A stretch of 64,000 bases of DNA from Clostridia bacterium. GTDB lineage: Bacteria > Bacillota > Clostridia > Oscillospirales > Acutalibacteraceae. The notes beneath the pieces are model-generated. The model was not told the DNA's origin and ran no database searches. It worked only from the letters and a program-made list of their open reading frames with translations. This document shows, one piece after another, positions 32,682-57,389 of this stretch. Where the stretch lies: contig JAFRRP010000069.1 in assembly GCA_017428085.1 (NCBI GenBank), positions 3,088 through 67,087 on the forward strand, given 5' to 3'. Position 1 is the stretch's first letter; the number at the start of each line of letters is the position of its first letter. The position numbers were made by a program, and so were the translations under genes.

Positions 32682-32761
32682 GTATGGTAGCTCTGTTATA
32701 CCAAAATGTCAAGTGCTTTTCGAGTTAAAATTACGAATTGATGTATTGCCGGATTGATTAT

Positions 32762-33634
32762 TTATTCGTCGGTTTCAGCAGTTTCTTCCGTATTGTCCTC
32801 AGAGATTGCAGATCCAGAATAACTATCAGGATTTTTGTAGTATTCTGGATTGCACAGATTTAGGCTTGTAAAACTTTTTCGAAGTCTTTTGGCAGAGGGC
32901 TTGAACGCTGCATAAGTTAATCCCCCTGTTACTACACCCCCAATTACAGGGACAACTTTCGATACACCGTTTGCGAAGATTTGTTTTGTCATTCTAACTC
33001 CGATTGTCTGAGCAATCTTTTTTACTATCGGATAAATAGTTCCTTTTGTTAGGGCCTTTTGCGCTAAAGATTTGGACACTTTTTGTGCAGCAGCTTGAGC
33101 TAAGAATTTTACACCGGCGTTTGCACTTTGAACACCAAACATCACCCCGAGAAAAACCATTACATGATTCATTGTATCTACATTGACTTCATCTTCGTTG
33201 AGATTAAATTGATCAAATCCATACAGATAAGCCAATTGCTGCATTACGCGGAGAATAAAACCAAAAAATTGCGTAATGTCGGCCGGAATTGTACCGAGCA
33301 TAGCAAAACCACCGGGGATACCTGCCGCAAATGAAATAGCAGAAACTTTGTTGGTTTCATAATTGATTACCTGTTTTGCAATTGGGTCTATTACGGACCT
33401 TTCTATTCCTGCAAATGCAGGGTTCTTATCAATGGCGATTTGTATCTGCTTTTCCGAACACTTCCCATTCAGCTCTTTTCTAAGAAAAGCTTCCCGGTTG
33501 ATTTTTACTAACGGCAGCTTCATTGCCTTAAATAAAATCTCCTCAAGTGGGATCTTTTCTAAAACAACGTCACCTTTTTCGGCTATTTGCTTTTGTGCTG
33601 ATGCAACCACATCTTTTATTATTTTAATGTCCAT
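32762..33634 (-). CDS. EcsC-like protein
   Basis: AT-rich codon usage and an AGGAG RBS 6 nt before ATG 33634. The central segment AAGIPGGFAMLGTIPADITQFFGFILRVMQQLAYLYGF resembles the EcsC family core. The C-terminal half is hydrophobic and glycine-rich. Confidence 0.5.
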   Translation of the reverse strand: MDIKIIKDVVASAQKQIAEKGDVVLEKIPLEEILFKAMKLPLVKINREAFLRKELNGKCSEKQIQIAIDKNPAFAGIERSVIDPIAKQVINYETNKVSAISFAAGIPGGFAMLGTIPADITQFFGFILRVMQQLAYLYGFDQFNLNEDEVNVDTMNHVMVFLGVMFGVQSANAGVKFLAQAAAQKVSKSLAQKALTKGTIYPIVKKIAQTIGVRMTKQIFANGVSKVVPVIGGVVTGGLTYAAFKPSAKRLRKSFTSLNLCNPEYYKNPDSYSGSAISEDNTEETAETDE

Positions 33635-33730
33635 AATCTGCTCCTGTCGTTGAATTTGTTAGTTCATATTAAGAGCTGTATTTTTCGCGATTTATTATCC
33701 TCTGACGACGGTCATGTTGACTTTATTCTT

Positions 33731-34492
33731 CTATGCTTTTCGCTCGGATATTTCAACCAGCGGTGCTTTAAAAGCATGAGGAACATGGTAGTATTCTTTC
33801 AACGCTGCCATCAAGGATTCCTCAATGTCATTGCGTAATTCCATAGAGTCCTGTTCAGATACAGTAAATTCATAAGAAAAAGTCTTTGATGTCTTTTTGT
33901 TGTACTCCACCGTAATATCTGCGGTGTATTTTCCAATCTCCCAAAAGAAATCACTCAAAATGCTGTTTTTTGCATCAATAAACGCAGTAGTTTGGGAAAA
34001 AGCCGCATATGCCTCATTGTAAGTAGGTACTTGCACCGATTGCAACACTAAAGGAGTCAAATTGTTGCATATTTTCCGAATCTTTTTGCCGGAAGAATCA
34101 GAGGGATCCCCATATTCAATAAATGCACAAGAAACGCTATCGGCTTCAACGCGGAAAGGATGTGCAGCCTCCATTGTTTGGACATAATTTCCGAGCATAC
34201 TCTGATTGACAGGAGAAATAAGAAAAGACCAAACAAGGTTGAGTTTTTGATCATCGCGTTTGCGCGTAAGAACTAAGCTCAACTTTTTGATGGTAGAGGC
34301 TTTCCTTTCAGATTCAAGAACACCATTGAGACGAATGTATGACCCACTCTGATTGAAAAATAGTGTAGCTTGTCCAGTAGGATAAAATTTTACTGTTCCT
34401 TTAACAATCCACTTTTTCCAGGCCCACTGAACTATCGGTATGATAATTGCTATAACAGATAAAAAAATAGCAATTTTCTCATATAAAGACAT
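33731..34492 (-). CDS. Hypothetical single-pass membrane protein
   Basis: GGAG RBS 5 nt before ATG 34492 (the ORF-track start at 34531 lacks one). N-terminal TM helix IAIFLSVIAIIIPIVQWAW. No recognisable domain. Confidence 0.55.
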   Translation of the reverse strand: MSLYEKIAIFLSVIAIIIPIVQWAWKKWIVKGTVKFYPTGQATLFFNQSGSYIRLNGVLESERKASTIKKLSLVLTRKRDDQKLNLVWSFLISPVNQSMLGNYVQTMEAAHPFRVEADSVSCAFIEYGDPSDSSGKKIRKICNNLTPLVLQSVQVPTYNEAYAAFSQTTAFIDAKNSILSDFFWEIGKYTADITVEYNKKTSKTFSYEFTVSEQDSMELRNDIEESLMAALKEYYHVPHAFKAPLVEISERKA

Positions 34493-34638
34493 CCCGGCTC
34501 CAGTTTGTTGAATAGGCGTTATGCTAAGCATAAAAAAACACCTCCGCTTTTATGCTGAAATCGATAAACTGTTTTTCCTGTTAGCTTATCTATTAGTCAG
34601 TACAGAATAACCCTGTGTTCAATCTCCCTAATTTTTCA

Positions 34639-35016
34639 TTAGGTCTTATGTGTAAGCACCCATTGTAGCAGATCTTCATACCCCATGCTTCCGTCTGCAA
34701 CAGAAAGCCCGATGTGAATGATCTCTTCATCCGTACATTTGATTTTTATGCCGTTCATTTCAAGAAAAGAAAGCATAACGTATACGCCGATCCGTTTGTT
34801 TCCGTCCACGAACGCGTGATTGCTGATAAGGGCATACCCGAGCCGGGCGCCCTTTTCTTCTTTGGTTGGGTAAAACTCCCGATCTCCGAATCCCGCAAAC
34901 GCACTCTCTAACGCAGATTCCAGCAACGCTTCATCCCGAACCCCGATGCTGCCGCCGGTTGCCTCCGCCATCAGTTTGTGCAAAAGCAAAATCTTTTCCT
35001 TCGAGAATTTGATCAT
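34639..35016 (-). CDS. doc: Doc (death-on-curing) Fic-fold toxin
   Basis: Fic/Doc motif HAFVDGNKRIG, about 125 aa. The start overlaps the phd stop (ATGA). Confidence 0.85.
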   Translation of the reverse strand: MIKFSKEKILLLHKLMAEATGGSIGVRDEALLESALESAFAGFGDREFYPTKEEKGARLGYALISNHAFVDGNKRIGVYVMLSFLEMNGIKIKCTDEEIIHIGLSVADGSMGYEDLLQWVLTHKT

Positions 35017-35255
35017 TTCGCAAGCTCCTCAAACGCGGCTTTGTGTTCCCGGAGAATTCTTCCCGCAACAAATTCCAGCTTTTCGTCTTCCGTCATGTCG
35101 ATCTGCGGTTCCGTATCCAGATCGATCACCAGCAGCTTCGGCCGGTTGTTCTTGAATACCACTACGTGCCCTTTTTCTTCCGCCTGCTTCGCCACGCGGG
35201 AAAAGTTCTGATTCGCCTCCGTCGCTGTTACGATGGCGTTGGTATCGATCGTCAT
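35013..35255 (-). CDS. phd: Phd/YefM-family antitoxin
   Basis: 80-aa protein IVTATEANQNFSRVAKQAEEKGHVVVFKNNRPKLLVIDL, typical of Phd/YefM. GGAAGGTG RBS before ATG 35255. Translationally coupled to doc. Confidence 0.8.
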   Translation of the reverse strand: MTIDTNAIVTATEANQNFSRVAKQAEEKGHVVVFKNNRPKLLVIDLDTEPQIDMTEDEKLEFVAGRILREHKAAFEELAK

Positions 35256-35276
35256 AAAAATCACCTTCCCGTATAC

Positions 35277-35304
35277 AGTATAACACAAAATAGGCAAAAA
35301 TCAA
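35277..35304 (-). promoter_or_regulatory. Putative phd-doc promoter
   Basis: On the minus strand: TTGATT, 16-nt spacer, TATACT, about 20 nt upstream of the phd RBS. Confidence 0.45.
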
Positions 35305-35358
35305 CCTATTTTCTTTTGCATCTAAAACTGCATCGGACTAAGCAAAATACAATCCATT

Positions 35359-35450
35359 TCCGACGATTGGCCACAATTTACTCCGATGATTGACCGGGGT
35401 TCACTCCGACGATTGGCAGCTTTTTATTCCGATGATTGGCGAAATATAGA
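35359..35450. repeat. Four direct iterons with exact 23-bp phasing (core TCCGAYGATTGRC)
   Basis: Cores start at 35359, 35382, 35405 and 35428: tccgacgattggc, tccgatgattgac, tccgacgattggc, tccgatgattggc. Each is followed by a non-conserved 10-bp spacer. The period is not a multiple of 3, so the repeats are non-coding. Confidence 0.85.
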
Positions 35451-35556
35451 TCAACAGGCGTTTCATCATTCAAATAAACCGCCCCCAGAAGCCGCAAAAA
35501 CGCGGCTAACCTCCGGGAGCGTTCTCTTTACCTCTGTTTTCTCTGCAAGGTCAACG

Positions 35557-35607
35557 CATTTTTCTTTCTCTGCCGGTCAGAATTTGCACCGCTGAAACAA
35601 AGAATAA
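35557..35607. repeat. 51-bp direct repeat, copy 1
   Basis: catttttctttctcTgccggtcagaatTtgcAccgcTgaaacaaagaataa. It differs from copy 2 at 4 positions. Confidence 0.85.
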
Positions 35608-35616
35608 CGCCTGCTG

Positions 35617-36048
35617 TCATGATCTGAAGAACGCCGGGTTGAAACGGTATTTCCCTTTACCCATTCCGTTGACGGGCGCAAGGATATCTGCGGCAGATAA
35701 CTTTCGAAGCAGCTCCGAAGCCGGAGATGGCGTCAGTGCCAAAAGCTCCATGACTTCCGTTCTGCCGAAAAAGCGGTCAAAACCGAACGCTTCAAAAAGC
35801 AACACAGCGTTCGTCGCGGATTTCTTCGGGATCCCGGCGTTGACGATCCGATCAATGTCCTGTTTTTAATCTTGAATGTCCTGTTTTTCGCTTTCAATGT
35901 CCTGTTTTTTAAGCGCGCCGCTGATATGCATCGTTCTGTTTAACAACGGACAACGCTCATTCAGCAACAGGTTCCGCAAAAACAACTCTAAAAATTCCGT
36001 CGTTTCATGAACGCCTTTTTGCAGATTGGTGTAGTTCGCCCGCACCAT
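35617..36048 (-). pseudogene. Decayed gene: C-terminal winged-helix fragment interrupted by an in-frame TAA
   Basis: ORFs 35866-36048 and 35617-35805 are in the same frame, separated only by TAA (35866-35868). Read-through gives ...KKQDIESEKQDIQD*KQDIDRIVNAGIPKKSATNAVLLFEAFGFDRFFGRTEVMELLALTPSPASELLRKLSAADILAPVNGMGKGKYRF. That is a wHTH tail of the kind found at the C-terminus of AlbA_2/RecG-like putative regulators. No plausible N-terminal catalytic part is present. Confidence 0.5.
35854..35909. repeat. 21-bp tandem repeat x3 inside the decayed gene
   Basis: aatgtcctgttttt recurs at 35854, 35875 and 35896. It encodes the KQDI-x3 peptide repeat on the minus strand. The in-frame stop sits in one repeat unit. 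Confidence 0.8.
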
Positions 36049-46198: not shown

Positions 46199-48424
46199 AT
46201 GCCTAACAGCAAAGAAAAAACGCTTGATCTTAAAGATATTGAGAAGGCCGAGAAAGAGTATTTCTCATGGCTGTCAAATGCCGTTTCTCCTTACGCTCAT
46301 AAAGAGATTGCATCCTCGTATAGAATTCTAAATTCTATGCTAGTTCAAAAAAAGGTGCTTCCTCAAGCAATATGTGCTATAACGCAGATCGAGCAAGTTG
46401 AAACCGCACTTCATAAGGTTAGGATGGTGTTTGGAAGCAAAAAATTGCGGAATACAGCATCGAAGACGCTTGAGCTCTATCTGACCTTTTTGCGAGAAAA
46501 GGAAAGCACAACCACTGCAAACTATACCTCTGAAATTGAAATTGGAGAGAATTGGATTCGTTTCGATTCTTTAAATGCACAGGCTTTTGAGAGAACGGTT
46601 CCAGTCTATTGCTGTATAAACGGAACAAATATTCAAGGAAAAAACTGGGCGCGGATTCTTGTCGCTCTTGTAGAGAATGAACTTGCTAATATGAATCCAG
46701 CATTGGATGATCTTTACGATAATCCCCTGGTTGAAAACAGGGCCAACAGATCGTTCTTTATGAAGCAAGCAATACTTGGACAGAATTGCTCTGAGCTTTC
46801 CAATGGTTACTGGATTAGTATCAATTATAATATTCCTAAGTTGATGGAGATCATTCGATCATTTTGCCTGCATTGTGGATATAGTGAAAACCAAGTTGTA
46901 CTTTATGGAGTCCCAAGAGGAAAGAAAGAAGAAGCTGCGATTGAGCGAAAACCGTTTGATTTACAAGAGGCAGTAATTCTTTTGGATGTGTACTTGCTCG
47001 AAAAGAGTAGCAATCTTACAAGAACAGAAGCAGCGGCTATAGCATCTAAACGCCTGCGCAGATTTGCTGAGCGTAGAGGTATGATCATTTCTGATTCTTT
47101 CCGAAGCCCGATGGGCCTCCAAAATAGAATCAGGAGTATTGCCGGTATTTTCGAAGGAATCGAATCCGTTTCCGCCCCTGGCACGGAAGTGTTCAATTTA
47201 GCAGTCGAACTCTACAAAAACAACAATCAAGTTTATCAGCAAATTCTCCATGATGCAAAGGATCCATCTGATCAAACTGCAGATGAAATGGGCAACACCG
47301 AAAGTAGAACAGCCCGCAGTGTCAACATGGAAAAAGTTGAAGAAGCATTGAAAAATGCTGGGCTCCAAGGGCTTACGATTCAGGAGCTGATTGACACGGT
47401 TCTGCCAGGTGCGTCGGTCTCGTCAACACGGAATGCCTTAGATGAGGACAAGAGCATCATTGCGATGCCAGGTAATCGTTTTCTCCACGAGGACAGTTTC
47501 GTGGACATGGATGAAGCCGAGGATGCTCTTAGGAGAATCCTCAGCACACACTTTGCACAATTTGGCGGTTATAGCAACAACCAGCTTCTCTTTGGCGCAG
47601 CATCTCAGGAGCTTTCAATGTTTCTGAACGATAACGACTGCGAAAGCATAGATGCTGTGTATGCGATTGCGCGATTCTTGTTTGAAAAGAAAGCCGTTAC
47701 CGGAATGCCGTATAAGTTCTACGCTCCTCACATTTTCGAGGTTGAGCCGGATTATCCCATGACTCTTAGAGGCCTGATGATTCATCTCGCCAGAAGTAAT
47801 GGCGGCATTCTTTATGAAGGTGAGGCAAAGAACTATCTTCAAAAGATCATGCTTTCCTACGGGGGCATGGGGCAGCTGCTACAGATTGGAAGTTCGAATA
47901 CTTTTCTCATGTATGACGATGACAGATATCTTTTAAGCGAATCAATCGGCATAAATGATGCCTGGTGTCTCCGAATGCATGACAGGATAGATGATCTGTT
48001 CCGCAAGGCAAATGTGGCATATGTGATCCCAAGAGATATCAGCGAAGCATGGTTAAATATGCTGCCTGCTCTGCCGCAGGGCCTTTGCTGGACAAGGCTT
48101 CTTATGCAAGAAGTGCTGGACAAGTATCCAGCGATTGGATTCAAATCTATATCAGCTGATTTGAATCAATCGCACCACACACTAGCAGCTGCTTTTGTGC
48201 CCGTAGATTCTCCCCTTCAGTCTTTTCCTGATATAGTAACGCTTTTCATGGAGGAACGGCACGACCTTCCGATGCGTATGCCGGGTGAAGAGCTGAGATT
48301 AGAGTTGAGAGATGCGGGCATGTTGGAAGCAGGCGAAATGATCTATGCACTTCCTAAGGCACTGGACGACTATCGCTTCGCGTGGACAGATGAGAATAAG
48401 ACGGTGCTGATTCGCGGAAACTGA
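46199..48424 (+). CDS. Large hypothetical protein (741 aa) heading the BREX-like operon
   Basis: GGGAGAGAG RBS and AT-rich codon usage matching the downstream brx genes. No catalytic motif is seen. There is a possible winged-helix (HARE-HTH-like) segment GLTIQELIDTVLPGASVSSTRNALDEDKSIIAMPGNRFLH. Confidence 0.7.
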   Translation: MPNSKEKTLDLKDIEKAEKEYFSWLSNAVSPYAHKEIASSYRILNSMLVQKKVLPQAICAITQIEQVETALHKVRMVFGSKKLRNTASKTLELYLTFLREKESTTTANYTSEIEIGENWIRFDSLNAQAFERTVPVYCCINGTNIQGKNWARILVALVENELANMNPALDDLYDNPLVENRANRSFFMKQAILGQNCSELSNGYWISINYNIPKLMEIIRSFCLHCGYSENQVVLYGVPRGKKEEAAIERKPFDLQEAVILLDVYLLEKSSNLTRTEAAAIASKRLRRFAERRGMIISDSFRSPMGLQNRIRSIAGIFEGIESVSAPGTEVFNLAVELYKNNNQVYQQILHDAKDPSDQTADEMGNTESRTARSVNMEKVEEALKNAGLQGLTIQELIDTVLPGASVSSTRNALDEDKSIIAMPGNRFLHEDSFVDMDEAEDALRRILSTHFAQFGGYSNNQLLFGAASQELSMFLNDNDCESIDAVYAIARFLFEKKAVTGMPYKFYAPHIFEVEPDYPMTLRGLMIHLARSNGGILYEGEAKNYLQKIMLSYGGMGQLLQIGSSNTFLMYDDDRYLLSESIGINDAWCLRMHDRIDDLFRKANVAYVIPRDISEAWLNMLPALPQGLCWTRLLMQEVLDKYPAIGFKSISADLNQSHHTLAAAFVPVDSPLQSFPDIVTLFMEERHDLPMRMPGEELRLELRDAGMLEAGEMIYALPKALDDYRFAWTDENKTVLIRGN

Positions 48425-48456: not shown

Positions 48457-50796
48457 ATGTATGGATACGAATGGACGGACCAAAACGGAATATACAAACT
48501 GTCCGTAAATAGCAAAATACAAAAAGAGATTCGTCCAGTTTTCAAAGAGGAGCTAGATTATTTTGGCTTCAATGAGCACTGGACATATCCGGATACAAAA
48601 GCACCACTTTTATGGGCGGAGGGTATTCGGCGCTATGTGTTGAACGGCGTTTGTGTAGCAGAAGCGGTTGGCGGTGGTTTCTACACAAAACCCACAATAA
48701 AATACTACACCGAGGACCTGGCACTCGATCCCATTGACATTGAAATGCTCTGGCAACAAAACGAACGCCTGATGTTGGGGCTCGAAAAAACCGCTATGGA
48801 TTTTATCCGCAGCACTCATGATAAATATGAAAAAGATGGCATGGCTTTTGCCGTTGCTTTCAGTGGTGGAAAGGATTCGCTTGTCCTTCTCGATCTTGTC
48901 GCTCGGACGCTTTCCCCGGATAAGTTCTGTGTTGTCTTTAGCAATACCGGAATGGAGCTTTCCACAACCCTAAAGTCTGTAGAAAAGGCAAAACAGCACT
49001 GGCCGTCGCTGAAGTTTTATGAGGCGAAGAGCCATCTTGATCCTGAAGAAAGCTGGGACGAGTTTGGCCCCCCAGGCCGCAGAATGCGGTGGTGTTGTGC
49101 AGTACATAAATCTGTTCCCACCATATTGCTATTACGAGAGATTACTGGCGACTATAATGTGAAAGCAGTTGTGTTTGATGGTGTGCGAGCTGAGGAGAGT
49201 GCAGCAAGAGCTGATCGTGATGAAATCAGCGTTGGGGCCAAAAACATAAACCAGATAAACTGTAGCCCCATACTAAAGTGGGGAACATCAGAGCTGTTTA
49301 TCTATTTGCTCCATAATAATATTTTGTTGAATGATGCATACCGTCTTGGCCTGTTCAGAGTGGGCTGTATCGTCTGCCCTATGTCTTCAAATTGGTGGGA
49401 CGGAATAGTAAATGATGTATATCCTGAGGAAATGCACGAACTGCTTTCGAAGGTTGAAATGTATTCAGCGGCAACCAAACCACAGAGTGAAGTTTCGAAG
49501 TTTATTGAACAAGGTGGCTGGAAAGCTCGCATGGGTGGCCGTGGGCTGAAAAATGGTGGAAACCGTGTAGTGGAACGAATAGCTGATGATCGGATTGCTT
49601 TTAGCTTCACTTCAAAAAGTCAAAATTGGTTAGATGTTTGTAGCATTCTTGGTCCCATCGTTTATAAGGACGAGGGCATTTATACGCAGATAATCGGAAA
49701 ACAAGAATTCCAGTTTCGGATTGTTTCCGAAGATACTCCGGCAGTAATTTATTGGCCCTATTCAAAGATGGACAGATTTGTCTTAAGCCATTTAAGAGGG
49801 GTTGCGAACAAAACAGCATACTGCTTTGGGTGTAAAGCCTGCGAAGTACAATGTCCGGTCAACGCATTTACAATCACTGAAAATGGACACATCTATATCA
49901 GAGAAGAGAATTGCATCCACTGTTATAATTGCATTGAATTTACGAATGGAAAAGGCTGTCTGGCAGCCAAATCGCTTTCAGTTACGGGAGGAGGAAATGG
50001 TATGGATCTAAAGGGGATGAACAGGTATCAGCACTTTGGGCTTAGACGTCCCTGGCTCGAGCATTTCTTTGCAAACAAGGAGGACTGCTTTACGATGGGA
50101 GTTCTTGGAAATCGTCAGTACGATTCCCTCAAAGTCTGGCTTCGGGAAAGTGATCTTTTGACGGCCAGCGGGAAAGGCGAGAAGTCTGGGGTTACCACAC
50201 CGCTTTTTGATAAACTTCAACCCATGGGAGCGGGCAACCCACTAACCTGGGCAATCATCTGGACGAATCTTGCCTACAATTCGATCATTGTAAAGTGGTA
50301 TATGCTAAATGCCCCTTCCGGTGAGGTCTATGATAAAAACGATCTTATCTTCCTCCTTGGTGATGACTATTCTAAATCCACCCGCGATAATGCAGTAACT
50401 GCATTGCTTGAAACGTTCCGACATAGCCCGATCGGTACTGTGCTGAAGCAAGGTATTCCAATCCCGAGCGGTACCAGCTATAAGTTCTCAAAGCAAGGCT
50501 GGAATACTCCGGATGCCGTTGCAATTCTATACGCGCTTTATATGTGGGCAGAGGCAACCGGCCGCTACACCTTTACGCTGAGCCAGCTGGCTGCTGCACG
50601 AGGCAACGCCGATGCTAAGGGTGTCGATCCGGTATCTATCTTCGGAATAAATCCAGATCGGTTTAAAGACATCCTGCAGGACATTGCGTTACAATTCGAT
50701 AAATACATCCGCACGACATTCGTTGCGGATCTGGATAATGTACAGCTCTTCCCTGAGTATAGGTCACTTGACATCCTAGATTTGATTGTGAAGTAA
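48457..50796 (+). CDS. brxP: BrxP-like PAPS-reductase/DndC-like PP-loop protein with ferredoxin-type 4Fe-4S motifs
   Basis: PP-loop AVAFSGGKDSLVLLDL, then RMRWCCAVHK and DGVRAEES (PAPS_reduct/DndC-like). Cys clusters CFGCKACEVQCP and CIHCYNCIEF..GKGC. AGAGGA RBS. Confidence 0.75.
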   Translation: MYGYEWTDQNGIYKLSVNSKIQKEIRPVFKEELDYFGFNEHWTYPDTKAPLLWAEGIRRYVLNGVCVAEAVGGGFYTKPTIKYYTEDLALDPIDIEMLWQQNERLMLGLEKTAMDFIRSTHDKYEKDGMAFAVAFSGGKDSLVLLDLVARTLSPDKFCVVFSNTGMELSTTLKSVEKAKQHWPSLKFYEAKSHLDPEESWDEFGPPGRRMRWCCAVHKSVPTILLLREITGDYNVKAVVFDGVRAEESAARADRDEISVGAKNINQINCSPILKWGTSELFIYLLHNNILLNDAYRLGLFRVGCIVCPMSSNWWDGIVNDVYPEEMHELLSKVEMYSAATKPQSEVSKFIEQGGWKARMGGRGLKNGGNRVVERIADDRIAFSFTSKSQNWLDVCSILGPIVYKDEGIYTQIIGKQEFQFRIVSEDTPAVIYWPYSKMDRFVLSHLRGVANKTAYCFGCKACEVQCPVNAFTITENGHIYIREENCIHCYNCIEFTNGKGCLAAKSLSVTGGGNGMDLKGMNRYQHFGLRRPWLEHFFANKEDCFTMGVLGNRQYDSLKVWLRESDLLTASGKGEKSGVTTPLFDKLQPMGAGNPLTWAIIWTNLAYNSIIVKWYMLNAPSGEVYDKNDLIFLLGDDYSKSTRDNAVTALLETFRHSPIGTVLKQGIPIPSGTSYKFSKQGWNTPDAVAILYALYMWAEATGRYTFTLSQLAAARGNADAKGVDPVSIFGINPDRFKDILQDIALQFDKYIRTTFVADLDNVQLFPEYRSLDILDLIVK

Positions 50797-50808: not shown

Positions 50809-53800
50809 ATGGCAAAGTATAATACCTATATTGAATTAAGCCCTCACTATGAGTCGGTTGTGGACATCGATTCAGAATCCCGCCATCCTGAAATGTGGCA
50901 GGAGTATATCGTCCACGAAGATATGAAGGGTGCTATAGAAGTCATCTGCGATTCTCTGAAATATGAGGACGAGGATAAACGACGTTCCTTCTGGATCCAT
51001 GGTGCATACGGTACCGGCAAGAGCTATGCTGCCATTGTGCTGAAGCACCTCTTTGAGGATAGCATCCCCAATATCCGCAAGTTCCTGTCCAATCAGATGC
51101 TAATTCCTTATAGAGAACGGTTCCTCTTCATCCGCGAAAAGGGTGACTTTCTTGTAATTTGGAAGAGCCAAGCTACCGATATCCGGAGCGGTATTCAGCT
51201 CATGATGACGATGGAAGACGCTATCCGCACCAAGCTGAAAGAAAAGTATGGCGATTCTGCGTACTACGGCAAGAAATCTCTTGTTGCCGCGGCGCAAGAG
51301 AAGGTAAAAGATGCCTCTATCAATTGGGACGAGCTATTCCAAAACCAAACCTATGCATTGTTTGAAGAGTATGGTTCTGTTGATCAATTCCGCGAAGATG
51401 TATTGGCTGGTAGCCTGAAGGCAGCCGGTATTGTTGCGCGTATTTTCCGAGACAAAGGCTGGGGCTTTTTCACCAGCCTGAAAGATTTCAAAGAGTGGGT
51501 GACAGATGTTATTGAAGGAAACCATCTTCAGGACACGGGTATTATCTTCATCTGGGATGAGTTCACCTCTTATCTTCGAAACAATCCGACTGACGATGTC
51601 TTGCAGCCGTTATCGGAGTTTTGTAAGGAGCAGCCGTTCTTCATGTTCCTTATCGTGCATAGAGCGCCGAGCTGGGTAAGCCAGATCGGTGAAGAAATCT
51701 ATGAGCAAATCGTTCACCGTTACCACTCTCTCGACTTTCATGTCAGTGAAAGTGCGGCATATGAGCTGATAGGTAGTTCCATTTTAACCCGTGCAGGAAT
51801 GGATGATCAGTGGAATGCTATAAAAGATAGTTTAATGAAGTCGATTAGCAAGAACTTTGCTGATTTCGACAACTTGGACATGAGCAATAAAAAAGAGCGC
51901 CTCCGTCAGCTTTGCCCACTGCATCCAATGACGCTCTCTCTGCTTGCTATCGTTGCCCAGAACTTTGGTGCATCTCAACGCACACTGTTCCGTTTTATGA
52001 AAGACCCGAAAGAGTCCGAGCAGAACATGGGCTTTATTTACTATATAAATAATTTCGGTCCGGATGACTGGCGCTGGTTGACACCGGATTATCTTTGGGA
52101 TTATTTCTTCACCAGAGAAAGCGATGTGCGCAGTTTCTCACCGGAGGCGAAAAGCGCCTATCAGCATTACATGACCAAGCGGGAGTTTATTTCAGATGAT
52201 TATCACATGCATGTGTTTAAAGCAGCCATGCTGTTGATTGCGGTCATGTCTTCCGGTACAGTCAGTAATCTCTATAGTCAGGCGACACAGCGCAAGGTAT
52301 CTGCCACAAGCAGTACATTGTATAAATGCTTTGCAGGTCAGCTGACAAAAGAAGATGTGGAGATGTATCTTGCTGATTTGGAGCAGATTGGTGTTCTGCG
52401 TCTCGATGCCATGACCAGTGGTGACAAGCGCCTTCAAATTCCTTACAGTGGCAACGCAGACGTGTTCGATGTTCGCAAGGATATGCTTATGAAGAAGTAT
52501 ACCCGTTACGAACTCTTTAAAAAGGGCGGGGTTTTTGCCAAATCCATGGAGGCAAAAATCTGGGATAAAACAAGTGCGTCCTTTGGTAGAATGTATATCG
52601 CTGCATGCGATTTTGGAACTAATTCCATCAATTTGAGGTATAGTGAAGTCCAGGCTGAACTCAAAAAGTATCCATATAAATTCGGTATCCTCGCGATAGC
52701 GATTTCTGAAGCGAGCCAGTTTGCAACTATGCAGGATAAGGTAAAAAGCATTGCTGCGCAGGATACTACAGGTCGCATGGCTATTTATTTAATGAAGTCT
52801 CCGCTTACTGACGATCATCTGGATCGCTGGTATAATGCCATGACCCATTCGGAGCTTGCTGCCGAAGAGGGAAAAAGTGGTGATGCTGAACGCTATTCCG
52901 ATGAAGCCAGCACTATAATTGAAGAGTGGTCCGGAACAGCAAAAGATGACCAGCTGATGGTTGTCTGCGGAGAGAAGGTTTATCCATCTGAATATGGGAC
53001 GGAATACTTTGCTCCTAAGTTGGAGCGGGACATTCTGTTCGGCTCAATTTTCACAGCAGCCCCGGAGCTTGTCGTTACAACAAATACAGCATTTAAAAAG
53101 ATTCAGCAGAGCACTGCGCTGGCTGGGGTCCAGAAATCTACGCCTAATACACAGATTGGTAATATTGTCAACGGTTTAAAACAAGCAGGTGTTTGGGATA
53201 CACAGGGGCTTGAGAAGCTCGCACAAAGCGCTGGCAACGATGGAGCTATTGCTGTTGCAAAGATAGCTAATTTCATCCTGCAGCGTTTTTCACAGGGCAC
53301 GCAAATCAAGCTGGATGCATTTTGGCAGGAACTGCAGGAGGCGCCATTCGGATACTACAACAATATGACATGCGGATATATTCTTGGCTTTCTGCTAAGA
53401 TATTATGTCAACAGCGAGTTCAGCTGGAATAAGGGAGATAATAACCCTTGGCCGTTGACCGATCAGACGCTTGCAACAATGATTACGGCCATCTGCAAAG
53501 AGGAGGTTGTAAACAACTACTTGTCTCCTGGCTCTGAAATCTGGCAGAAGTTTAAGCCCTATGTACAAAAGGTCTTTATGCTGCAAGATGGTGAGACCGT
53601 CAATGAAACTGAGGCCCGAAAATATATTTCAAAGCAATGTACTGAGAAGGCGGGTGTGCCATTCTGGGTTCTGAAATACTTACCTGATGAAAAGTTTGGT
53701 GGCGCTGCAGCCAAGCAAGTTGCAAATGAAATAATAGATCTTTTCTGCGATTTTATGGCCGAAAATGGAGATCAGGAGCAGGTGATGGGCAACATCACCG

Positions 53801-55002
53801 TGAAGTTTACCGGTCATGGGCCTATCCGAAAAGCTCTATCAAATCTCTATTTTGATCAGAATACGGTATATGATGCCTTTAGCACGTTTATTACCCTCAA
53901 ATGCCCGGAACTTCAACAGCTAAAAGTGGGGATTTGCCTTACTAGCCACGATCTATTTGATGCTATTCACCAGATGATGCAGGGCCAAGTCTCTACATGG
54001 ACTGAAGACCAGGTGGAAGAGAAGCTCTCCGAGCTTTGCATAGAGTATCGTGCGGTTTCGATGCTAAACGACGCTCTCAATGTTAAGCGCAAGAGTATTA
54101 AGGCGCTGGGGGACGATATCGATAACGCCTTCGAAAACATGAAGATCCCCGGTACAGTGATCGAAAAACTGGGCTATGCCTGGATTCCCGCACTTAAGGC
54201 TATGCAGCAAATTGCTACTACCCAATGGTCGAAGATCGAACTGGCCGAGAGAAAGACCTATGTTCAGCTTCTTGCGAATGATGTACAAAAGGCATGGACT
54301 AGTATAACCTCTCCTAAAGCAATCCTTCAGAGGTACATGGAAAAGCATGGCCACAACTGCACCGAAGAAGAGCTGGACGGAATCTATGCAGCACTGAAGG
54401 CTGTAAAATACAATTCACCTGCTTCTGATTTCGATGCCAGGATCGATGTTCAGCTTAATAAAATAGCTTATAACCGGAACAAGGTGCGTATTCAGGAGCT
54501 ATGGAAAGCACAGAGTGGCTTTGATTCTGTTGCACAGTGGTGCGATAGTTATGCAGTACCGATTCAATGGGTTATTAGTGACGAAGCTTTGCTACACGTT
54601 ACTGTATTAAAGACCGTGCAGGATGGGATGCTCACTGATAATACATCTCTTCACAATGCCACACAATATTTTGAATGCAATACAATCAGTGTACTGAAAG
54701 ATAAAAAAGCCATTCTTGACTGCTTTATTGCACAGATAGGTGATAGTTATCGGGCGGCATTTGAGGCATCCGGCATGGTGCTTGTTTCCCGCTTAAAAAC
54801 CAATAGCAAGCTGTCTTCAGATGTCTATTCCTGGGCGAACAAGGTTGGAGAAATTCGTAAGACAATTGATTCATTCCTTCGGGATAAGTATTGCGGGAAT
54901 GCAAAGAACAGAGTGAAGACCATGCCGGAAGACCAGTTGCGTGATAGAGTAATTCAACTGTTGGATGAAAACCCTGATCTCTATACCCTGTTCATCAACT
55001 AA
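50809..55002 (+). CDS. brxC: BrxC/PglY-like giant P-loop ATPase (1397 aa)
   Basis: Walker A IHGAYGTGKSYAA near the N-terminus and Walker B GIIFIWDEFTSYL. Its size and its position between brxP and pglZ fit. AAGGAGG RBS. Confidence 0.7.
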   Translation: MAKYNTYIELSPHYESVVDIDSESRHPEMWQEYIVHEDMKGAIEVICDSLKYEDEDKRRSFWIHGAYGTGKSYAAIVLKHLFEDSIPNIRKFLSNQMLIPYRERFLFIREKGDFLVIWKSQATDIRSGIQLMMTMEDAIRTKLKEKYGDSAYYGKKSLVAAAQEKVKDASINWDELFQNQTYALFEEYGSVDQFREDVLAGSLKAAGIVARIFRDKGWGFFTSLKDFKEWVTDVIEGNHLQDTGIIFIWDEFTSYLRNNPTDDVLQPLSEFCKEQPFFMFLIVHRAPSWVSQIGEEIYEQIVHRYHSLDFHVSESAAYELIGSSILTRAGMDDQWNAIKDSLMKSISKNFADFDNLDMSNKKERLRQLCPLHPMTLSLLAIVAQNFGASQRTLFRFMKDPKESEQNMGFIYYINNFGPDDWRWLTPDYLWDYFFTRESDVRSFSPEAKSAYQHYMTKREFISDDYHMHVFKAAMLLIAVMSSGTVSNLYSQATQRKVSATSSTLYKCFAGQLTKEDVEMYLADLEQIGVLRLDAMTSGDKRLQIPYSGNADVFDVRKDMLMKKYTRYELFKKGGVFAKSMEAKIWDKTSASFGRMYIAACDFGTNSINLRYSEVQAELKKYPYKFGILAIAISEASQFATMQDKVKSIAAQDTTGRMAIYLMKSPLTDDHLDRWYNAMTHSELAAEEGKSGDAERYSDEASTIIEEWSGTAKDDQLMVVCGEKVYPSEYGTEYFAPKLERDILFGSIFTAAPELVVTTNTAFKKIQQSTALAGVQKSTPNTQIGNIVNGLKQAGVWDTQGLEKLAQSAGNDGAIAVAKIANFILQRFSQGTQIKLDAFWQELQEAPFGYYNNMTCGYILGFLLRYYVNSEFSWNKGDNNPWPLTDQTLATMITAICKEEVVNNYLSPGSEIWQKFKPYVQKVFMLQDGETVNETEARKYISKQCTEKAGVPFWVLKYLPDEKFGGAAAKQVANEIIDLFCDFMAENGDQEQVMGNITVKFTGHGPIRKALSNLYFDQNTVYDAFSTFITLKCPELQQLKVGICLTSHDLFDAIHQMMQGQVSTWTEDQVEEKLSELCIEYRAVSMLNDALNVKRKSIKALGDDIDNAFENMKIPGTVIEKLGYAWIPALKAMQQIATTQWSKIELAERKTYVQLLANDVQKAWTSITSPKAILQRYMEKHGHNCTEEELDGIYAALKAVKYNSPASDFDARIDVQLNKIAYNRNKVRIQELWKAQSGFDSVAQWCDSYAVPIQWVISDEALLHVTVLKTVQDGMLTDNTSLHNATQYFECNTISVLKDKKAILDCFIAQIGDSYRAAFEASGMVLVSRLKTNSKLSSDVYSWANKVGEIRKTIDSFLRDKYCGNAKNRVKTMPEDQLRDRVIQLLDENPDLYTLFIN

Positions 55003-55019: not shown

Positions 55020-57389
55020 GTGACAATTACTGAAATCAAGGAAAAACTCAGTCAGGAGAGGGGCTTTGGTTCCCGTTTCCCGGCTCGGATTATCTTTACA
55101 GAGAGCCTCGACGCATATTCTCAGCTGGAAACTCAGCTGAAAGGAATCTGTGACGTTACGATCAACTTAGCAGATTTTTGCAGAGCGCCAGATACAGTTC
55201 CCCAATTCGACCAGATTAAGGCAAAACTTGATGAATACGAAGGAAAACAGATTTTGCTTCTTTCTGCTGGCGAGTATCTTCGTCTATGCATAAAACGGGA
55301 ATTGAATGTAGAGAGGCGACAGTTTCTGCCTTTCTGGGAAACACAACAGGCAGAATCGTCAAGGTCAAGAGTCATTATGCCCATGTTTTCCTGCAGGGAT
55401 CTATTCGATCGAGTAGTTGGCGCAGTAGACGAGCGTCAGCAGGATTATGTGTGGACCTTTGAAACGCCACAGAATACTAATCGTTACACTATATCTGTCT
55501 TTTCTCCGAAGTTTAAAGAAACAATCAGTGCGGACGCCGACAACCTGACTGAGTGGTTCCGTGATTGGCAAATTATTCTGCGGAGAGGCGTTCCCTGCAC
55601 TATTGTGACAATTCAAGAGAGTAATGTTGAAGCATCCTTTGGTAATGTCACAATCAAGCCAATCAATAGTCCCTTCTGCTACTTAACAGAGTGCTTAATC
55701 GATTCTGAAAGTCTGGTCGAGAAATGGGAAGACAGCGATTTTTGGAGCCAAATGGTTATATATGCTTCCAAATACCGTGAAAAGGCTTCATTTGCACAGA
55801 TTGTTGTTTCTGCATTGAACGTAAAGGCTTTTGACTTTGTTTCTGCTGTTGCAAGATGGAAGACTCTGAATGCTTTTCAAAAGGAACTTGTTTGGTTGTG
55901 GTACAGAGTATACCCGACAGGAGATTATTTTTCCTATGCCTGTCAAAAAGCTGTCGCCGCATCTGAGATCCCAGATAGAATTCGGGATGAGATTCTGTTG
56001 GTATCCAACAGAAGCAATTTATGGATTGAACAAAGAATGACAGCGATGAAGGCTTTGAACCTCTCCTCATTTTCTGATGAGTATTTTGCACTGATGGACA
56101 AGTTGCCTCTTGCAGAGACGAAGCTCCAACTTCTCACGTATCAGACCCATGAGGAAAAGACCTATGCCGTTAAAGTGATTAGCGGTCTTTTGCGCCAAGG
56201 TGCGGAGCCCGATGCAGTAGCCGGCATGATTGCGAATGACTATCCCGCTCTCGCGGCCTACATGAAAGAGCGAACCGGATGCAATGAATCGGTAGACGAG
56301 TACATGTCATGGTACCGTAAAAACAAAATCATCAACAGGTATCCAAGTGAACACTCTGGTCTCATTAACTTTGAACAATTTGACGCACGGTACAAACTAA
56401 TGCGCCCAATGAGTGGCAAGGATTGCGCTTCGTTTTGGATTGATGGCTTTGGCGTGGAGTATGCTCCAGTTTTCTTACATGAGCTGAAGTCTCGTGGGAT
56501 CACTCCTGACTCAGTAAAAATCGCAACTGCCCTTCTGCCTACCGAGACGGAATATAACCATCAATGGGACGAGAACGATCCATCAACTGAGAAATGGATT
56601 CGGCTGGATTCTTGCTCACATAAAGGAATGCCGGATGACAAGAGTTATTATTCATGCATTGTTCATCAATTGGCAGTTTTTGCTGAAGCTGCAAAGAAGG
56701 TCGAAGAGCTTCTGGGAAAGCATGATTATGTGATAGTTACCGGCGATCATGGCAGCAGCCGATTAGCTGCGCTTGCATTCCATGACCCTAGAGTTATTCC
56801 TGTGACAGCTCCCCAAAAATCGACAATCCATAGCTTTGGACGCTTCTGTGAACTCGATGAGAAATCTGTTGATATGATTGCTTTGCCGGGTACAAGTAAA
56901 GTAACTGCGACAATTGGAGGTAAAGCATTTCTGGTGATGAATACCTATCAGCACTTCTCCGTTAGCGGGAATGTAGCTGGTGGTAACACAGACGACCATG
57001 ATGTTGTTGGAGAGACTCACGGTGGCAACACCGCTGAAGAACGGCTTGTTCCAGTTATAATCATTAAAAGAAGCCAGCCGCTTGCTCCTCTTACCTGCAA
57101 GCCGAAAAGCCAGTATGTGACGAAACGAAACGGCCATATAGAAACGGCATTCTCGTTCAGTCAGCCCGTTTTAACTCTTGAAGTGTCTCAGGGAAACAAC
57201 AAAGCTTCTTGCACCGAAGTAGAGGATGGAAAATGGCTGGTGGTCATGGATAATGTGACCACGAATGATAAAGATGATATCGTTCTTTCCGTTATCGCAA
57301 ACGGCAGACTACTTCCCAATGTGATCCTCAAAGTAAAGACATCCGGTATCAGTAAGAACGCAGATCCGTTTGGTGGTATAGGCCTATGA
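55020..57389 (+). CDS. pglZ: PglZ-domain (alkaline-phosphatase-fold) protein
   Basis: C-terminal-half motifs FWIDGFGVEYAPVF, ALLPTETEYN and YVIVTGDHGSSR match the PglZ metal-site pattern. AAAGGAG RBS before GTG 55020. Confidence 0.75.
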   Translation: MTITEIKEKLSQERGFGSRFPARIIFTESLDAYSQLETQLKGICDVTINLADFCRAPDTVPQFDQIKAKLDEYEGKQILLLSAGEYLRLCIKRELNVERRQFLPFWETQQAESSRSRVIMPMFSCRDLFDRVVGAVDERQQDYVWTFETPQNTNRYTISVFSPKFKETISADADNLTEWFRDWQIILRRGVPCTIVTIQESNVEASFGNVTIKPINSPFCYLTECLIDSESLVEKWEDSDFWSQMVIYASKYREKASFAQIVVSALNVKAFDFVSAVARWKTLNAFQKELVWLWYRVYPTGDYFSYACQKAVAASEIPDRIRDEILLVSNRSNLWIEQRMTAMKALNLSSFSDEYFALMDKLPLAETKLQLLTYQTHEEKTYAVKVISGLLRQGAEPDAVAGMIANDYPALAAYMKERTGCNESVDEYMSWYRKNKIINRYPSEHSGLINFEQFDARYKLMRPMSGKDCASFWIDGFGVEYAPVFLHELKSRGITPDSVKIATALLPTETEYNHQWDENDPSTEKWIRLDSCSHKGMPDDKSYYSCIVHQLAVFAEAAKKVEELLGKHDYVIVTGDHGSSRLAALAFHDPRVIPVTAPQKSTIHSFGRFCELDEKSVDMIALPGTSKVTATIGGKAFLVMNTYQHFSVSGNVAGGNTDDHDVVGETHGGNTAEERLVPVIIIKRSQPLAPLTCKPKSQYVTKRNGHIETAFSFSQPVLTLEVSQGNNKASCTEVEDGKWLVVMDNVTTNDKDDIVLSVIANGRLLPNVILKVKTSGISKNADPFGGIGL

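What the first reader, a model, noticed from the sequence alone, without database searches (positions are those of the whole stretch)
46199..48424. Uncharacterised 741-aa protein as lead gene of the BREX-like operon (not part of the canonical type 4 set)
This long ORF has a good RBS and the same AT-rich codon usage as the brx genes. It ends 32 nt before brxP.

I see no Walker motif, no nuclease triad and no methylase motif. The only recognisable element is a winged-helix-like segment around nt 47380-47500, which is HARE-HTH-like. That domain class has been proposed to read modified DNA.

Inference: it may be the specificity or DNA-recognition subunit, or a new effector, that the four-gene type 4 definition lacks.
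Basis: inference. Interest (0 to 1): 0.6.

Follow-up and report, generated by a model that had tools for sequence, protein, structure and literature searches.

The report
Shuffled-domain partner protein of phosphorothioate BREX
The 741-aa gene is real and belongs to an undescribed protein family that sits directly in front of brxP in every relative of this phosphorothioate (type 4) BREX phage-defence operon examined; it pairs a constant C-terminal half with a rapidly reshuffled N-terminal half and most likely acts as the system's nucleic-acid-recognising adaptor.

Summary
The ORF (46199-48424, +) is confirmed. It lies 32 nt upstream of brxP in a complete type 4 BREX operon. The operon order is small HTH, this gene, BrxP, BrxC, PglZ, Zn-ribbon microprotein, BrxL, cysteine desulfurase.

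It matches nothing in Pfam, PADLOC, PHROGs or PDB sequences, and NCBIfam gives only a far-sub-threshold hit. Two AlphaFold models find no significant fold match.

The linkage to BREX is very strong:
- A homologous gene lies on the same strand upstream of BrxP in 78 of 78 metagenome loci found through BrxP.
- The same holds for 18 of 18 genome loci and 7 further contexts, with C-module identity down to about 29%.

The protein has four modules: N4H, AB, B and C.
- C (residues 367-741) is an acidic tandem winged-helix module. It is always at the exact C-terminus.
- The N-terminal modules diverge fastest in the operon. They are permuted, duplicated, or replaced by MrcB_N, HARE-HTH, sigma-4/alpha-CTD or UvrD-like domains.

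Another BREX-4 clade lacks the gene, and published work shows brxP and brxC suffice for phosphorothioation there.

Best reading: a clade-specific recognition adaptor, probably serving the restriction arm (confidence about 0.5). The specific HARE-HTH call is not supported; the segment is a generic winged helix.

The two 2026 papers on BREX-4 composition do not describe this gene.

The parts
45889..45917 (+). Sigma-70-like promoter match (TTGACT-17-TAATAT) about 40 nt upstream of the small HTH gene
   Evidence: Consensus scan. The number of matches in the region is no higher than in shuffled sequence, so this is only a candidate.
45957..46151 (+). 64-aa MerR/excisionase-type HTH gene, the conserved first gene of the operon and the likely regulator
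   Evidence: ORF. PHROG excisionase / DNA-binding hits at 7e-7. Called genes at this position in relatives carry weak HTH_17/HTH_59 hits. A homologue is found upstream in 37 of the 54 loci with BrxP >=80% identical.
46199..48424 (+). The 741-aa ORF (P0001), with architecture N4H-AB-B-C
46220..46516 (+). Module N4H (residues 8-106): basic four-helix bundle (pI 9.3), resembling the SAM-like core-binding domain of integrases
   Evidence: AlphaFold helices 11-28, 31-50, 64-77 and 81-104. Foldseek hits to Xer, Cre and Sap1 DNA-binding domains are weak (E 0.6-2.6). One distant member hits PF02899 at 2e-4. pI.
46532..46927 (+). Module AB (residues 112-243): alpha/beta domain with conserved W119, N126, T133, P135, C138, W150, C226; no known fold match
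   Evidence: The second model covers residues 108-360 with mean pLDDT 87, and mostly above 90 across this domain. Foldseek against PDB finds nothing with E<0.5. Conserved columns. The module occurs in tandem arrays of up to 7 copies in other proteins.
46934..47266 (+). Module B (residues 246-356): five-helix module (pI 8.3) that moves position between homologues
   Evidence: In most homologues it sits at the N-terminus. It is absent from the 619-aa forms and duplicated in P0010. Helices.
47297..48424 (+). Module C (residues 367-741): constant, acidic (pI 4.6-4.8) module of several winged-helix-like units, always at the exact C-terminus
   Evidence: In 96 of 96 full-length matches it ends within 0-3 residues of the protein end. 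804 clusters at 50% identity match the query at E<=0.001. Secondary structure. Foldseek returns only tandem winged-helix scaffold proteins such as Dcc1, VPS25, Rpc5, Stn1 and cullin WHB, none significant. pI.
47327..47494 (+).
   Evidence: Helix-helix-helix-strand-strand topology. HARE-HTH membership not met.
48457..50796 (+). BrxP: PAPS-reductase domain, 4Fe-4S motif and DUF4007-like C-terminus
   Evidence: PF01507 at 1e-25; PADLOC BrxP 776 bits.
50809..55002 (+). BrxC/PglY-type (SspC-like) P-loop protein, 1397 aa
   Evidence: PADLOC BrxC at 4e-76; SspC at 3e-23.
55020..57389 (+). Type-4 PglZ
   Evidence: NF033445 BREX_PglZ_4, 262 bits against a cut-off of 140.
57386..57589 (+). 67-aa CxxC...CxxC zinc-ribbon microprotein between PglZ and BrxL
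   Evidence: ORF. Genes of 66-68 aa sit at the same place in relatives.
57537..59066 (+). BrxL; the true start is probably the ATG at about 57606, after the microprotein
   Evidence: PF13337 at 1e-106; PADLOC BrxL 614 bits. Overlap seen.
59063..60223 (+). DndA/SspA/NifS-like cysteine desulfurase
   Evidence: PADLOC DndA at 2e-118; PF00266 at 2e-72.

Best explanation
The gene encodes a dedicated, clade-specific subunit of phosphorothioate-type (type 4) BREX.

Proposed mechanism, in three parts:
1. The constant, acidic C-terminal tandem winged-helix module (residues 367-741) is the part that docks onto the BREX-4 core (BrxP, BrxC and/or PglZ). This is inferred.
2. The N-terminal half is an exchangeable recognition head. 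In this window it consists of a basic four-helix bundle, a novel alpha/beta 'AB' domain and a basic five-helix module. In relatives it is replaced by MrcB_N, HARE-HTH, sigma-70 region 4 plus RNA-polymerase alpha-CTD, or a UvrD-like helicase. It reads DNA sequence, shape or modification state. This is inferred from the domain types.
3. By bringing that head to the core, the protein tells the machinery which DNA to act on. This is more likely licensing or aiming of the restriction arm (PglZ, BrxL, C-terminal part of BrxC) than the sulfur-insertion step.

What is shown: gene integrity, obligate synteny, modular architecture, relative rates of divergence, and absence of any recognisable catalytic domain.

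What is inferred: DNA binding, docking to the core, and the link to restriction.
For: 1. Synteny. Starting from BrxP, 78 of 78 metagenome loci with any upstream DNA carry a C-module ORF on the same strand upstream of BrxP. The gap runs from -55 to +34 nt in most loci. In about 9 loci it is 600-870 nt, and one locus (L107) has 1231 nt. In L032/L033 a 225-aa gene fills such a gap. Starting from the protein itself, 18 of 18 genome loci with downstream DNA have BrxP next, across Lachnospiraceae, Oscillospiraceae, Faecalibacterium, Odoribacter, Lentisphaeria, Desulfosporosinus, Christensenellaceae and Ruminococcus. All 7 proteins looked up by exact sequence that carry the C module do as well, with C-module identity down to 29%.

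2. A constant anchor with a variable head. The C module always ends the protein. More than 50 N-terminal architectures occur among about 360 proteins, and more than 15 among BREX-linked loci.

3. Divergence gradient. In loci with BrxP >=80% identical, median identity to the window is: BrxP 86, BrxC 84, C module 76, PglZ 70, module B 56, AB 53, N4H 42.

4. Known nucleic-acid-binding modules appear in the head of BREX-linked members: MrcB_N (L006-8), HARE-HTH (L119, L101), RNA_pol_A_CTD with Sigma70_r4 (L118), and UvrD/AAA_19 (L129).

5. Charge. N4H has pI 9.3 and B has pI 8.3. C has pI 4.6-4.8, and its only fold resemblances, none significant, are to protein-scaffold tandem winged helices such as Dcc1, VPS25, cullin WHB, Rpc5 and Stn1.

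6. Coding overlaps with brxP of 10-55 nt in about 10 loci suggest translational coupling.

7. Pointers toward the restriction arm:
- brxP and brxC (cloned together with mcrA) sufficed for phosphorothioation in B. thetaiotaomicron, whereas brxC alone did not (PMC12914056).
- BREX-4 operons with BrxP of 842-850 aa lack this gene.
- On one contig, a protein made of seven AB domains without module C precedes a homologue of the BrxC C-terminus, a PglZ-like protein and BrxL, with no BrxP present (L157).
Against: - There is no direct evidence of DNA binding or of contact with any Brx protein.
- No significant structural or sequence match exists for any module, so domain functions rest on weak resemblances.
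- The AB domain is acidic (pI 5.4), which is not suggestive of DNA binding.
- More distant chromosomal relatives of the C module in Clostridia (810-1096 aa, with sigma-4 and in some also alpha-CTD) stand alone in housekeeping neighbourhoods. The C module is therefore not intrinsically a BREX-docking device.
- The restriction-arm argument leans on a different BREX-4 clade and on a single contig (L157).
Confidence: 0.5

Rival explanations
1. It is the sequence-specificity subunit of the modification arm, analogous to HsdS. The shuffled N-terminal modules choose the phosphorothioation motif and the C module binds BrxP/BrxC.
For: - The gene lies immediately upstream of BrxP and sometimes overlaps it.
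- A variable head on a conserved anchor mirrors HsdS target-recognition-domain shuffling.
- BREX-4 strains differ in phosphorothioate motif, and BrxC proteins from other species did not restore modification in a B. salyersiae brxC deletion mutant (PMC12914056).
Against: - In B. salyersiae-type BREX-4, brxP and brxC (cloned with mcrA) reproduce the native dinucleotide pattern without such a protein, and operons resembling that clade lack the gene.
- BrxP already carries its own DUF4007 (BrxA/SspB-like) DNA-binding part (PMC12839542; PADLOC PDLC02511 on residues 522-773).
- The AB-array protein of L157 works without any BrxP.
Confidence: 0.2
2. It is a transcriptional regulator of the operon, playing the role BrxR plays in type 1 systems.
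For: - The protein has multiple HTH or winged-helix-like units and sits near the start of the operon.
- Some members carry sigma-70 region 4 and RNA-polymerase alpha-CTD domains.
- Stand-alone chromosomal relatives exist.
Against: - A separate small HTH gene is conserved upstream and is the more ordinary regulator.
- A size of 450-1770 aa, combinatorial domain shuffling and very fast head divergence are not typical of an autoregulator acting on a conserved promoter.
- There is no WYL domain and no PADLOC or Pfam regulator hit.
- The winged-helix module is acidic.
Confidence: 0.12
3. It is a sensor or decoy for phage proteins, such as anti-BREX inhibitors or early phage proteins. The variable head binds protein rather than DNA.
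For: - Arms-race-like diversification and module shuffling of the head.
- The AB domain is acidic, forms tandem arrays and has no DNA-binding fold match.
Against: Whenever the head contains a recognisable domain, it is a nucleic-acid-binding or helicase domain: MrcB_N, HARE-HTH, sigma-4, alpha-CTD or UvrD.
Confidence: 0.1
4. It is an unrelated mobile-element gene that merely travels with the island.
For: - The island is foreign to its host: 44% G+C against about 62%.
- Some relatives lie next to phage-like replication genes or on IMG/VR contigs.
Against: - Position and strand are invariant in all loci with flanking DNA, across several phyla and down to 29% C-module identity, while the flanks differ completely.
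- No PHROG, plasmid or phage homologues were found.
Confidence: 0.02

Closest known systems
Type 4 BREX (brxP-brxC-pglZ-brxL), now known to make phosphorothioate DNA (Goldfarb 2015 definition; Yuan et al. 2026, PMC12914056; PMC12839542)
   Same: The window holds the full set: BrxP with PAPS-reductase, Fe-S and DUF4007-like parts; SspC-like BrxC; type-4 PglZ; BrxL; and the recently added cysteine desulfurase and small zinc-finger protein.
   Different: The 741-aa gene is in neither the four-gene definition nor the component lists of the two 2026 papers, as far as their text and held supplements were searched. It is universal in the clade with 776-780-aa BrxP and about 1400-aa BrxC. It is absent from the two operons examined with 842-850-aa BrxP.
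BrxA / DUF4007 / SspB (tripartite HTH plus winged-helix DNA-binding component of BREX and Ssp systems)
   Same: It is a multi-winged-helix, non-enzymatic protein encoded at the head of a BREX operon.
   Different: No sequence relation was found. PADLOC BrxA and related models give nothing at E<=0.01. hhalign of module C against BrxP, including its DUF4007-like part, gives probability 0.2%. The protein is much larger, its winged-helix part is acidic, and the operon already has a DUF4007-like domain in BrxP.
HsdS of type I restriction-modification (variable target-recognition domains on conserved docking regions)
   Same: The logic is the same: conserved partner-binding part, hypervariable recombining recognition parts, and no catalytic activity.
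   Different: There is no homology and the folds differ. It is not shown to set the modification motif. The published BREX-4 reconstitution needed no such subunit.
HARE-HTH (PF05066) and MrcB_N (PF12102) reader domains of modification-dependent restriction systems
   Same: Both domain families occur in the N-terminal heads of BREX-linked members of this protein family.
   Different: Neither is detectable in the window's protein. Its winged helix at residues 377-432 does not score as HARE-HTH.
BrxR (WYL-domain regulator upstream of type 1 BREX)
   Same: It sits upstream in the operon and contains winged-helix elements.
   Different: It has no WYL or WCX domain. It is two to five times larger and has shuffled modules. 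A separate small HTH gene occupies the regulator position.

Membership tests
Type 4 BREX locus | BrxP (PAPS-reductase-domain protein) present | tested here: met
   PF01507 at 1e-25; PADLOC PDLC02510 at 776 bits over residues 1-778.
Type 4 BREX locus | BrxC/PglY, PglZ and BrxL present on the same strand and adjacent | tested here: met
   PADLOC BrxC at 4e-76; NF033445 type-4 PglZ at 262 bits (cut-off 140); BrxL_ATPase at 1e-106; coordinates.
Type 4 BREX locus | The 741-aa protein is one of the defined components (BrxP, BrxC, PglZ, BrxL, DUF4007, Cys desulfurase) | tested here: not met
   No PADLOC, Pfam or PHROG hit, and only an 18.9-bit NCBIfam hit against a 110-bit cut-off. Not listed in PMC12839542 or PMC12914056. 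It is an additional component.
HARE-HTH (PF05066) | Significant match to the family profile | tested here: not met
   Pfam gives 0 families at E<=10. hhalign of the residue 367-438 profile against HARE-HTH segments of L119 and L101 gives probability 0.6% and 1.1%.
HARE-HTH (PF05066) | Winged-helix topology (three helices plus a beta hairpin) | tested here: met
   AlphaFold model: helices 377-390, 394-400 and 407-416; strands 420-423 and 427-430; block-mean pLDDT 73-87 across residues 381-430. This topology is shared by all winged helices and does not define the family.
BrxA / DUF4007 / SspB | Sequence or profile similarity to BrxA, or to the DUF4007 region of BrxP | tested here: not met
   No PADLOC hit. 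hhalign of A3 against A5 gives probability 0.2%.
BrxR (WYL regulators) | WYL ligand-binding domain | tested here: not met
   No PF13280 or WCX hit.
Tyrosine-recombinase SAM-like N-terminal domain (PF02899) | Profile match or clear fold match of residues 8-106 | tested here: inconclusive
   P0001 has no Pfam hit. One distant family member hits at 2.3e-4. Foldseek hits to Xer, Cre and Sap1 have E 0.6-2.6 and probability <=0.38.
PT-dependent restriction readers (SspE, DndFGH, ScoMcrA-type sulfur-binding domain) | Match to the families' models | tested here: not met
   No PADLOC Ssp or Dnd model matches P0001 at E<=0.01. There are no PDB sequence hits. A structural comparison with the sulfur-binding domain specifically was not run.
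Nucleases, ATPases, methyltransferases (effector reading) | Catalytic motifs (Walker A, HNH, HKD, GIY-YIG, PD-(D/E)xK in a beta-strand context, SAM motif I/IV) | tested here: not met
   Regular-expression scan. The loose D...ExK strings lie in predicted helices and their acidic residue is not conserved.

The most novel reading that the evidence does not exclude
The family is the missing self/non-self reader of phosphorothioate BREX. It would be a non-enzymatic subunit whose head reads DNA state and is re-targeted in evolution by cassette-like shuffling of small domains. One of those domains, 'AB', would be a new nucleic-acid-binding fold that also forms arrays of up to seven copies in a BrxP-less system built around PglZ and BrxL. 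The constant winged-helix module would couple that reading to PglZ/BrxL-mediated exclusion.
Probability: 0.3. Interest if true: 0.8.

Novelty: new variant of a known kind. Interest (0 to 1): 0.62.

Why it matters
How BREX systems recognise and stop foreign DNA is still unresolved. For type 4 only the sulfur-insertion step (BrxP and BrxC) has been tested experimentally.

This family gives that question a concrete handle. It is a conserved, non-catalytic subunit in what appears, from the gut-dominated sampling here, to be a widespread gut-microbiome clade of type 4 BREX. Its recognition head is naturally swapped between otherwise near-identical operons, so natural variants can serve as ready-made specificity or sensor mutants.

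The gene is also missing from the tools tested here. PADLOC 2.0, Pfam and NCBIfam give it no usable hit, so annotations based on them leave it a hypothetical protein.

Tried and rejected
- **Sequence family searches.** Pfam (also at E<=10), PADLOC, PHROGs, and PDB sequences by phmmer and by two profiles all returned nothing usable. NCBIfam gave only SepA at 18.9 bits against a cut-off of 110, which is noise.
- **Fold searches.** The full-length AlphaFold model (pLDDT 77.6) was searched against PDB and BFVD. A second model of residues 108-360 (pLDDT 87) was searched against PDB. No hit had E<=0.001. The best were generic winged-helix or helical DNA-binding domains. No AlphaFold DB library was available.
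- **HARE-HTH identity of the winged helix.** Rejected.
- **Homology of module C to BrxP/DUF4007.** Rejected.
- **PD-(D/E)xK nuclease reading of D478...E496-K497.** Rejected. The residues lie in helices and the glutamate is not conserved.
- **Plasmid or phage origin.** tblastn found no match in PLSDB or INPHARED. Only 4 IMG/VR contigs carry a homologue.
- **Own-phylum survey.** None of 400 other genomes has module C, so the window's copy arrived with the island.
- **Neighbourhoods of distant chromosomal relatives in Clostridia.** These gave no consistent context.
- **Alternative C-termini of N4H-AB proteins that lack module C.** No Pfam hits.
- **Bacteroides salyersiae locus.** The attempt to reach it by genus search landed in a different genus of 2-3 Mb genomes. 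It still yielded two BREX-4 operons without the gene.
Full report
**Observation**

The ORF at 46199-48424 (+) is intact and encodes 741 aa. It has a purine-rich Shine-Dalgarno stretch upstream of the start. It ends 32 nt before the next gene.

The downstream genes form a complete type 4 BREX set:
- BrxP: PF01507 plus 4Fe-4S motifs; PADLOC BrxP 776 bits.
- A 1397-aa BrxC that also matches SspC.
- Type-4 PglZ: NF033445, 262 bits.
- A 67-aa zinc-ribbon microprotein.
- BrxL.
- A DndA/SspA-like cysteine desulfurase.

A 64-aa excisionase/MerR-type HTH gene (45957-46151) precedes the ORF. The ORF is therefore the first large gene of the operon, not strictly the lead gene.

The island has 43-47% G+C against about 60-65% in the host DNA to its left. 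None of 400 other genomes of the window's phylum has the protein's C-terminal module. The operon is therefore a horizontally acquired island.

**What the protein is not**

It has no hit in Pfam (even at E<=10), PADLOC, PHROGs or PDB sequences. The single NCBIfam hit scores 18.9 bits against a cut-off of 110.

Motif scans find no Walker A, PP-loop, methyltransferase, HNH, HKD or GIY-YIG signature.

An AlphaFold model built on 45 homologues has mean pLDDT 77.6. A second model of residues 108-360 has pLDDT 87. Neither has a significant Foldseek match in PDB or BFVD.

The weak hits form a pattern:
- Tandem winged-helix scaffold proteins (Dcc1, VPS25, Rpc5, Stn1, SelB, cullin WHB, RpoE delta) appear among the full-length model's hits, and module C is the part built of winged-helix-like units.
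- Xer, Cre and Sap1 DNA-binding domains match helical parts of the N-terminal half; Sap1 is also the top hit of the residue 108-360 model.

**Anatomy**

BLAST, iterated profile searches and the models define four modules.

| Module | Residues | Description |
|---|---|---|
| N4H | 8-106 | Basic four-helix bundle, pI 9.3 |
| AB | 112-243 | Alpha/beta domain with a conserved Trp/Cys pattern and no fold match |
| B | 246-356 | Five-helix module, pI 8.3 |
| C | 367-741 | Acidic module (pI 4.6-4.8) made of a first winged helix (377-430), a helical segment and three further winged-helix-like units |

The specific HARE-HTH label is not supported:
- Pfam finds nothing.
- hhalign of the segment's profile against two bona fide HARE-HTH segments found elsewhere in the family gives about 1% probability.
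- The best PDB profile hits are generic winged helices.

**Linkage to BREX**

This is the strongest result.

Homologues looked up by exact sequence are all followed by BrxP, then BrxC, PglZ and BrxL. These include members whose C module is only 29-43% identical.

A scan of one genome per species returned 19 loci from at least four phyla. All 18 with downstream DNA have BrxP next.

The sampling was then reversed by scanning metagenomes with a BrxP alignment. Of the 80 loci returned (BrxP 60-98% identical), 78 had upstream DNA. All 78 carry a C-module ORF on the same strand upstream of BrxP.
- In most the gap runs from -55 to +34 nt. About ten overlap the brxP coding sequence.
- About 9 loci have a gap of 600-870 nt. 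In L032/L033 a 225-aa gene fills such a gap.
- One locus (L107) has a gap of 1231 nt.

The gene is not universal in type 4 BREX. Two operons with a longer BrxP (842-850 aa) and a shorter BrxC (about 1170 aa) start directly with BrxP. One of them has a small gene between BrxP and BrxC, as described for Bacteroides salyersiae.

**Evolutionary behaviour**

Module C always forms the exact C-terminus: 96 of 96 full-length matches. In total 804 clusters at 50% identity match the query.

The part in front of module C ranges from about 40 to 1350 residues. More than 50 arrangements occur among about 360 proteins. More than 15 occur among BREX-linked loci.

N4H, AB and B appear in different orders and copy numbers. 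The window's order, N4H-AB-B-C, is rare. The commonest order is B-N4H-AB-C.

Where the head of a BREX-linked member contains a known domain, it is one of:
- MrcB_N;
- HARE-HTH;
- RNA-polymerase alpha-CTD with sigma-70 region 4;
- a UvrD-like helicase.

Median identity to the window, within operons whose BrxP is >=80% identical:

| Component | Median identity (%) |
|---|---|
| BrxP | 86 |
| BrxC | 84 |
| Module C | 76 |
| PglZ | 70 |
| Module B | 56 |
| Module AB | 53 |
| Module N4H | 42 |

The head is thus the fastest-evolving and most recombining part of the system.

**Mechanism**

The pattern is a constant, acidic module resembling scaffold-type winged helices, joined to a basic, shuffled head drawn from nucleic-acid-binding domain families. 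The gene is obligately placed next to brxP and is probably translationally coupled to it in about ten loci. This fits an adaptor that docks on the BREX-4 core and contributes DNA recognition.

Three observations tilt its role toward discrimination or restriction rather than sulfur insertion:
- Yuan et al. obtained the native phosphorothioate pattern in B. thetaiotaomicron from brxP and brxC, cloned together with mcrA. brxC alone did not suffice (PMC12914056).
- Operons resembling that clade lack this gene.
- A protein made of seven AB domains and no module C precedes a homologue of the BrxC C-terminus, a PglZ-like protein, BrxL and the zinc-ribbon gene. That contig has no BrxP (L157).

These are inferences. 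The third rests on a single contig.

Counter-evidence:
- The AB domain is acidic.
- More distant chromosomal relatives of module C exist in Clostridia. They carry sigma-4, and some also alpha-CTD, and are not next to BREX genes.

I put 0.5 on the adaptor/recognition reading as stated. The rivals are:

| Rival | Confidence |
|---|---|
| HsdS-like role in motif choice | 0.2 |
| Regulator | 0.12 |
| Phage-protein sensor or decoy | 0.1 |
| Hitch-hiking gene | about 0.02 |

**Comparison with what is known**

Type 4 BREX was defined by four genes. It has since been shown to make phosphorothioate DNA (PMC12914056).

A 2026 comparative study lists BrxP, DUF4007, BrxC, PglZ and BrxL, adds the cysteine desulfurase, and mentions a small zinc-finger protein that often accompanies it (PMC12839542).

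Neither paper describes a large gene upstream of brxP. This holds for the main text of both and the held supplements of the second; none were held for the first. I cannot exclude a mention in figures or in files not held.

The protein is not BrxA/DUF4007, BrxR, SspE, a Dnd protein or a HARE-HTH protein by any test run here.

**Verdict**

- Association and non-enzymatic nature are supported.
- A recognition role is plausible.
- The HARE-HTH label is not supported.
- A role in modification specificity is less likely than a role on the restriction side.

This is a new, clade-defining variant of a known defence system, built around an uncharacterised protein family. Interest is 0.62.

Noticed in passing
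L157:6661-18916 (ENA ERZ27235108 contig k141_7280): A BREX-related operon without BrxP. Its genes in order are: 637 aa; 255 aa; a 1252-aa protein made of seven tandem AB domains; a 504-aa homologue of the C-terminal third of BrxC (its start overlaps the previous gene by 4 nt); a 780-aa PglZ-like protein (DUF7862-7864); BrxL; and a 68-aa zinc-ribbon protein. It may be a restriction-only derivative of BREX-4.
   Followed up: partly
L044-L050 (Clostridia genomes G717, G586, G509, G470, G613, G473, G523): Distant stand-alone relatives of module C (E 1e-17 to 1e-32). They are 411-1096 aa (six of the seven are 809-1096 aa). Six of the seven carry Sigma70_r4, and two of those also RNA_pol_A_CTD, N-terminally. 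They lie in unrelated housekeeping neighbourhoods (SpoIIP, Fpg, sugar enzymes), and one lies beside an NgoFVII-type restriction-modification gene.
   Followed up: partly
L151 and L152 (genomes G928, G809): A second clade of type 4 BREX, with BrxP of 842-850 aa and BrxC of about 1170 aa, lacks the upstream gene. L152 has a 145-aa gene between BrxP and BrxC, like the mcrA arrangement reported for B. salyersiae.
   Followed up: partly
L032:11043-11720, and similar 600-870-nt gaps in L114, L115, L121-L125 and L129: In a subset of operons a gap of 600-870 nt separates the C-module gene from BrxP. In L032/L033 a 225-aa gene with no Pfam hit fills it, and there the C-module gene was called as only 345 aa, although its open frame extends to 449 aa and includes an AB module.
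   Followed up: no
L001-L005:8145-9419 and upstream: In the most widespread relative (P0081; 369 member sequences) a DndB-family gene lies divergently upstream of the operon. It sits next to a phage-like replication module (D5 primase, family A polymerase, PD-(D/E)xK/DUF2800, Enc34 ssDNA-binding protein). Four IMG/VR contigs also carry the operon (L153-L156).
   Followed up: no
window 57386-57589: A 67-aa CxxC...CxxC zinc-ribbon ORF overlaps the PglZ stop and the listed TTG start of BrxL. BrxL therefore probably starts at the ATG near 57606. Equivalent 66-68-aa genes are called in relatives.
   Followed up: partly
window 44085-45741 (- strand): A 290-aa ORF with a HipA_C-like motif (NRDRHGAN) overlaps a 271-aa protein whose C-terminus is an excisionase-type HTH (PHROG 1e-14). 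The pair is divergent from the BREX operon and looks like a Hip-like toxin-antitoxin pair at the island border.
   Followed up: no
window 60238-64000: Two more defence-type genes follow the desulfurase on the same strand. The first is a PDC-S41 / Schlafen-group-3 helicase protein (PADLOC 814 bits). The second is a UvrD/GajB-like helicase that runs off the window.
   Followed up: no
window 32000-36000: A second low-G+C stretch (43-45%) lies inside the 60-65% G+C host DNA. It is probably another acquired segment.
   Followed up: no
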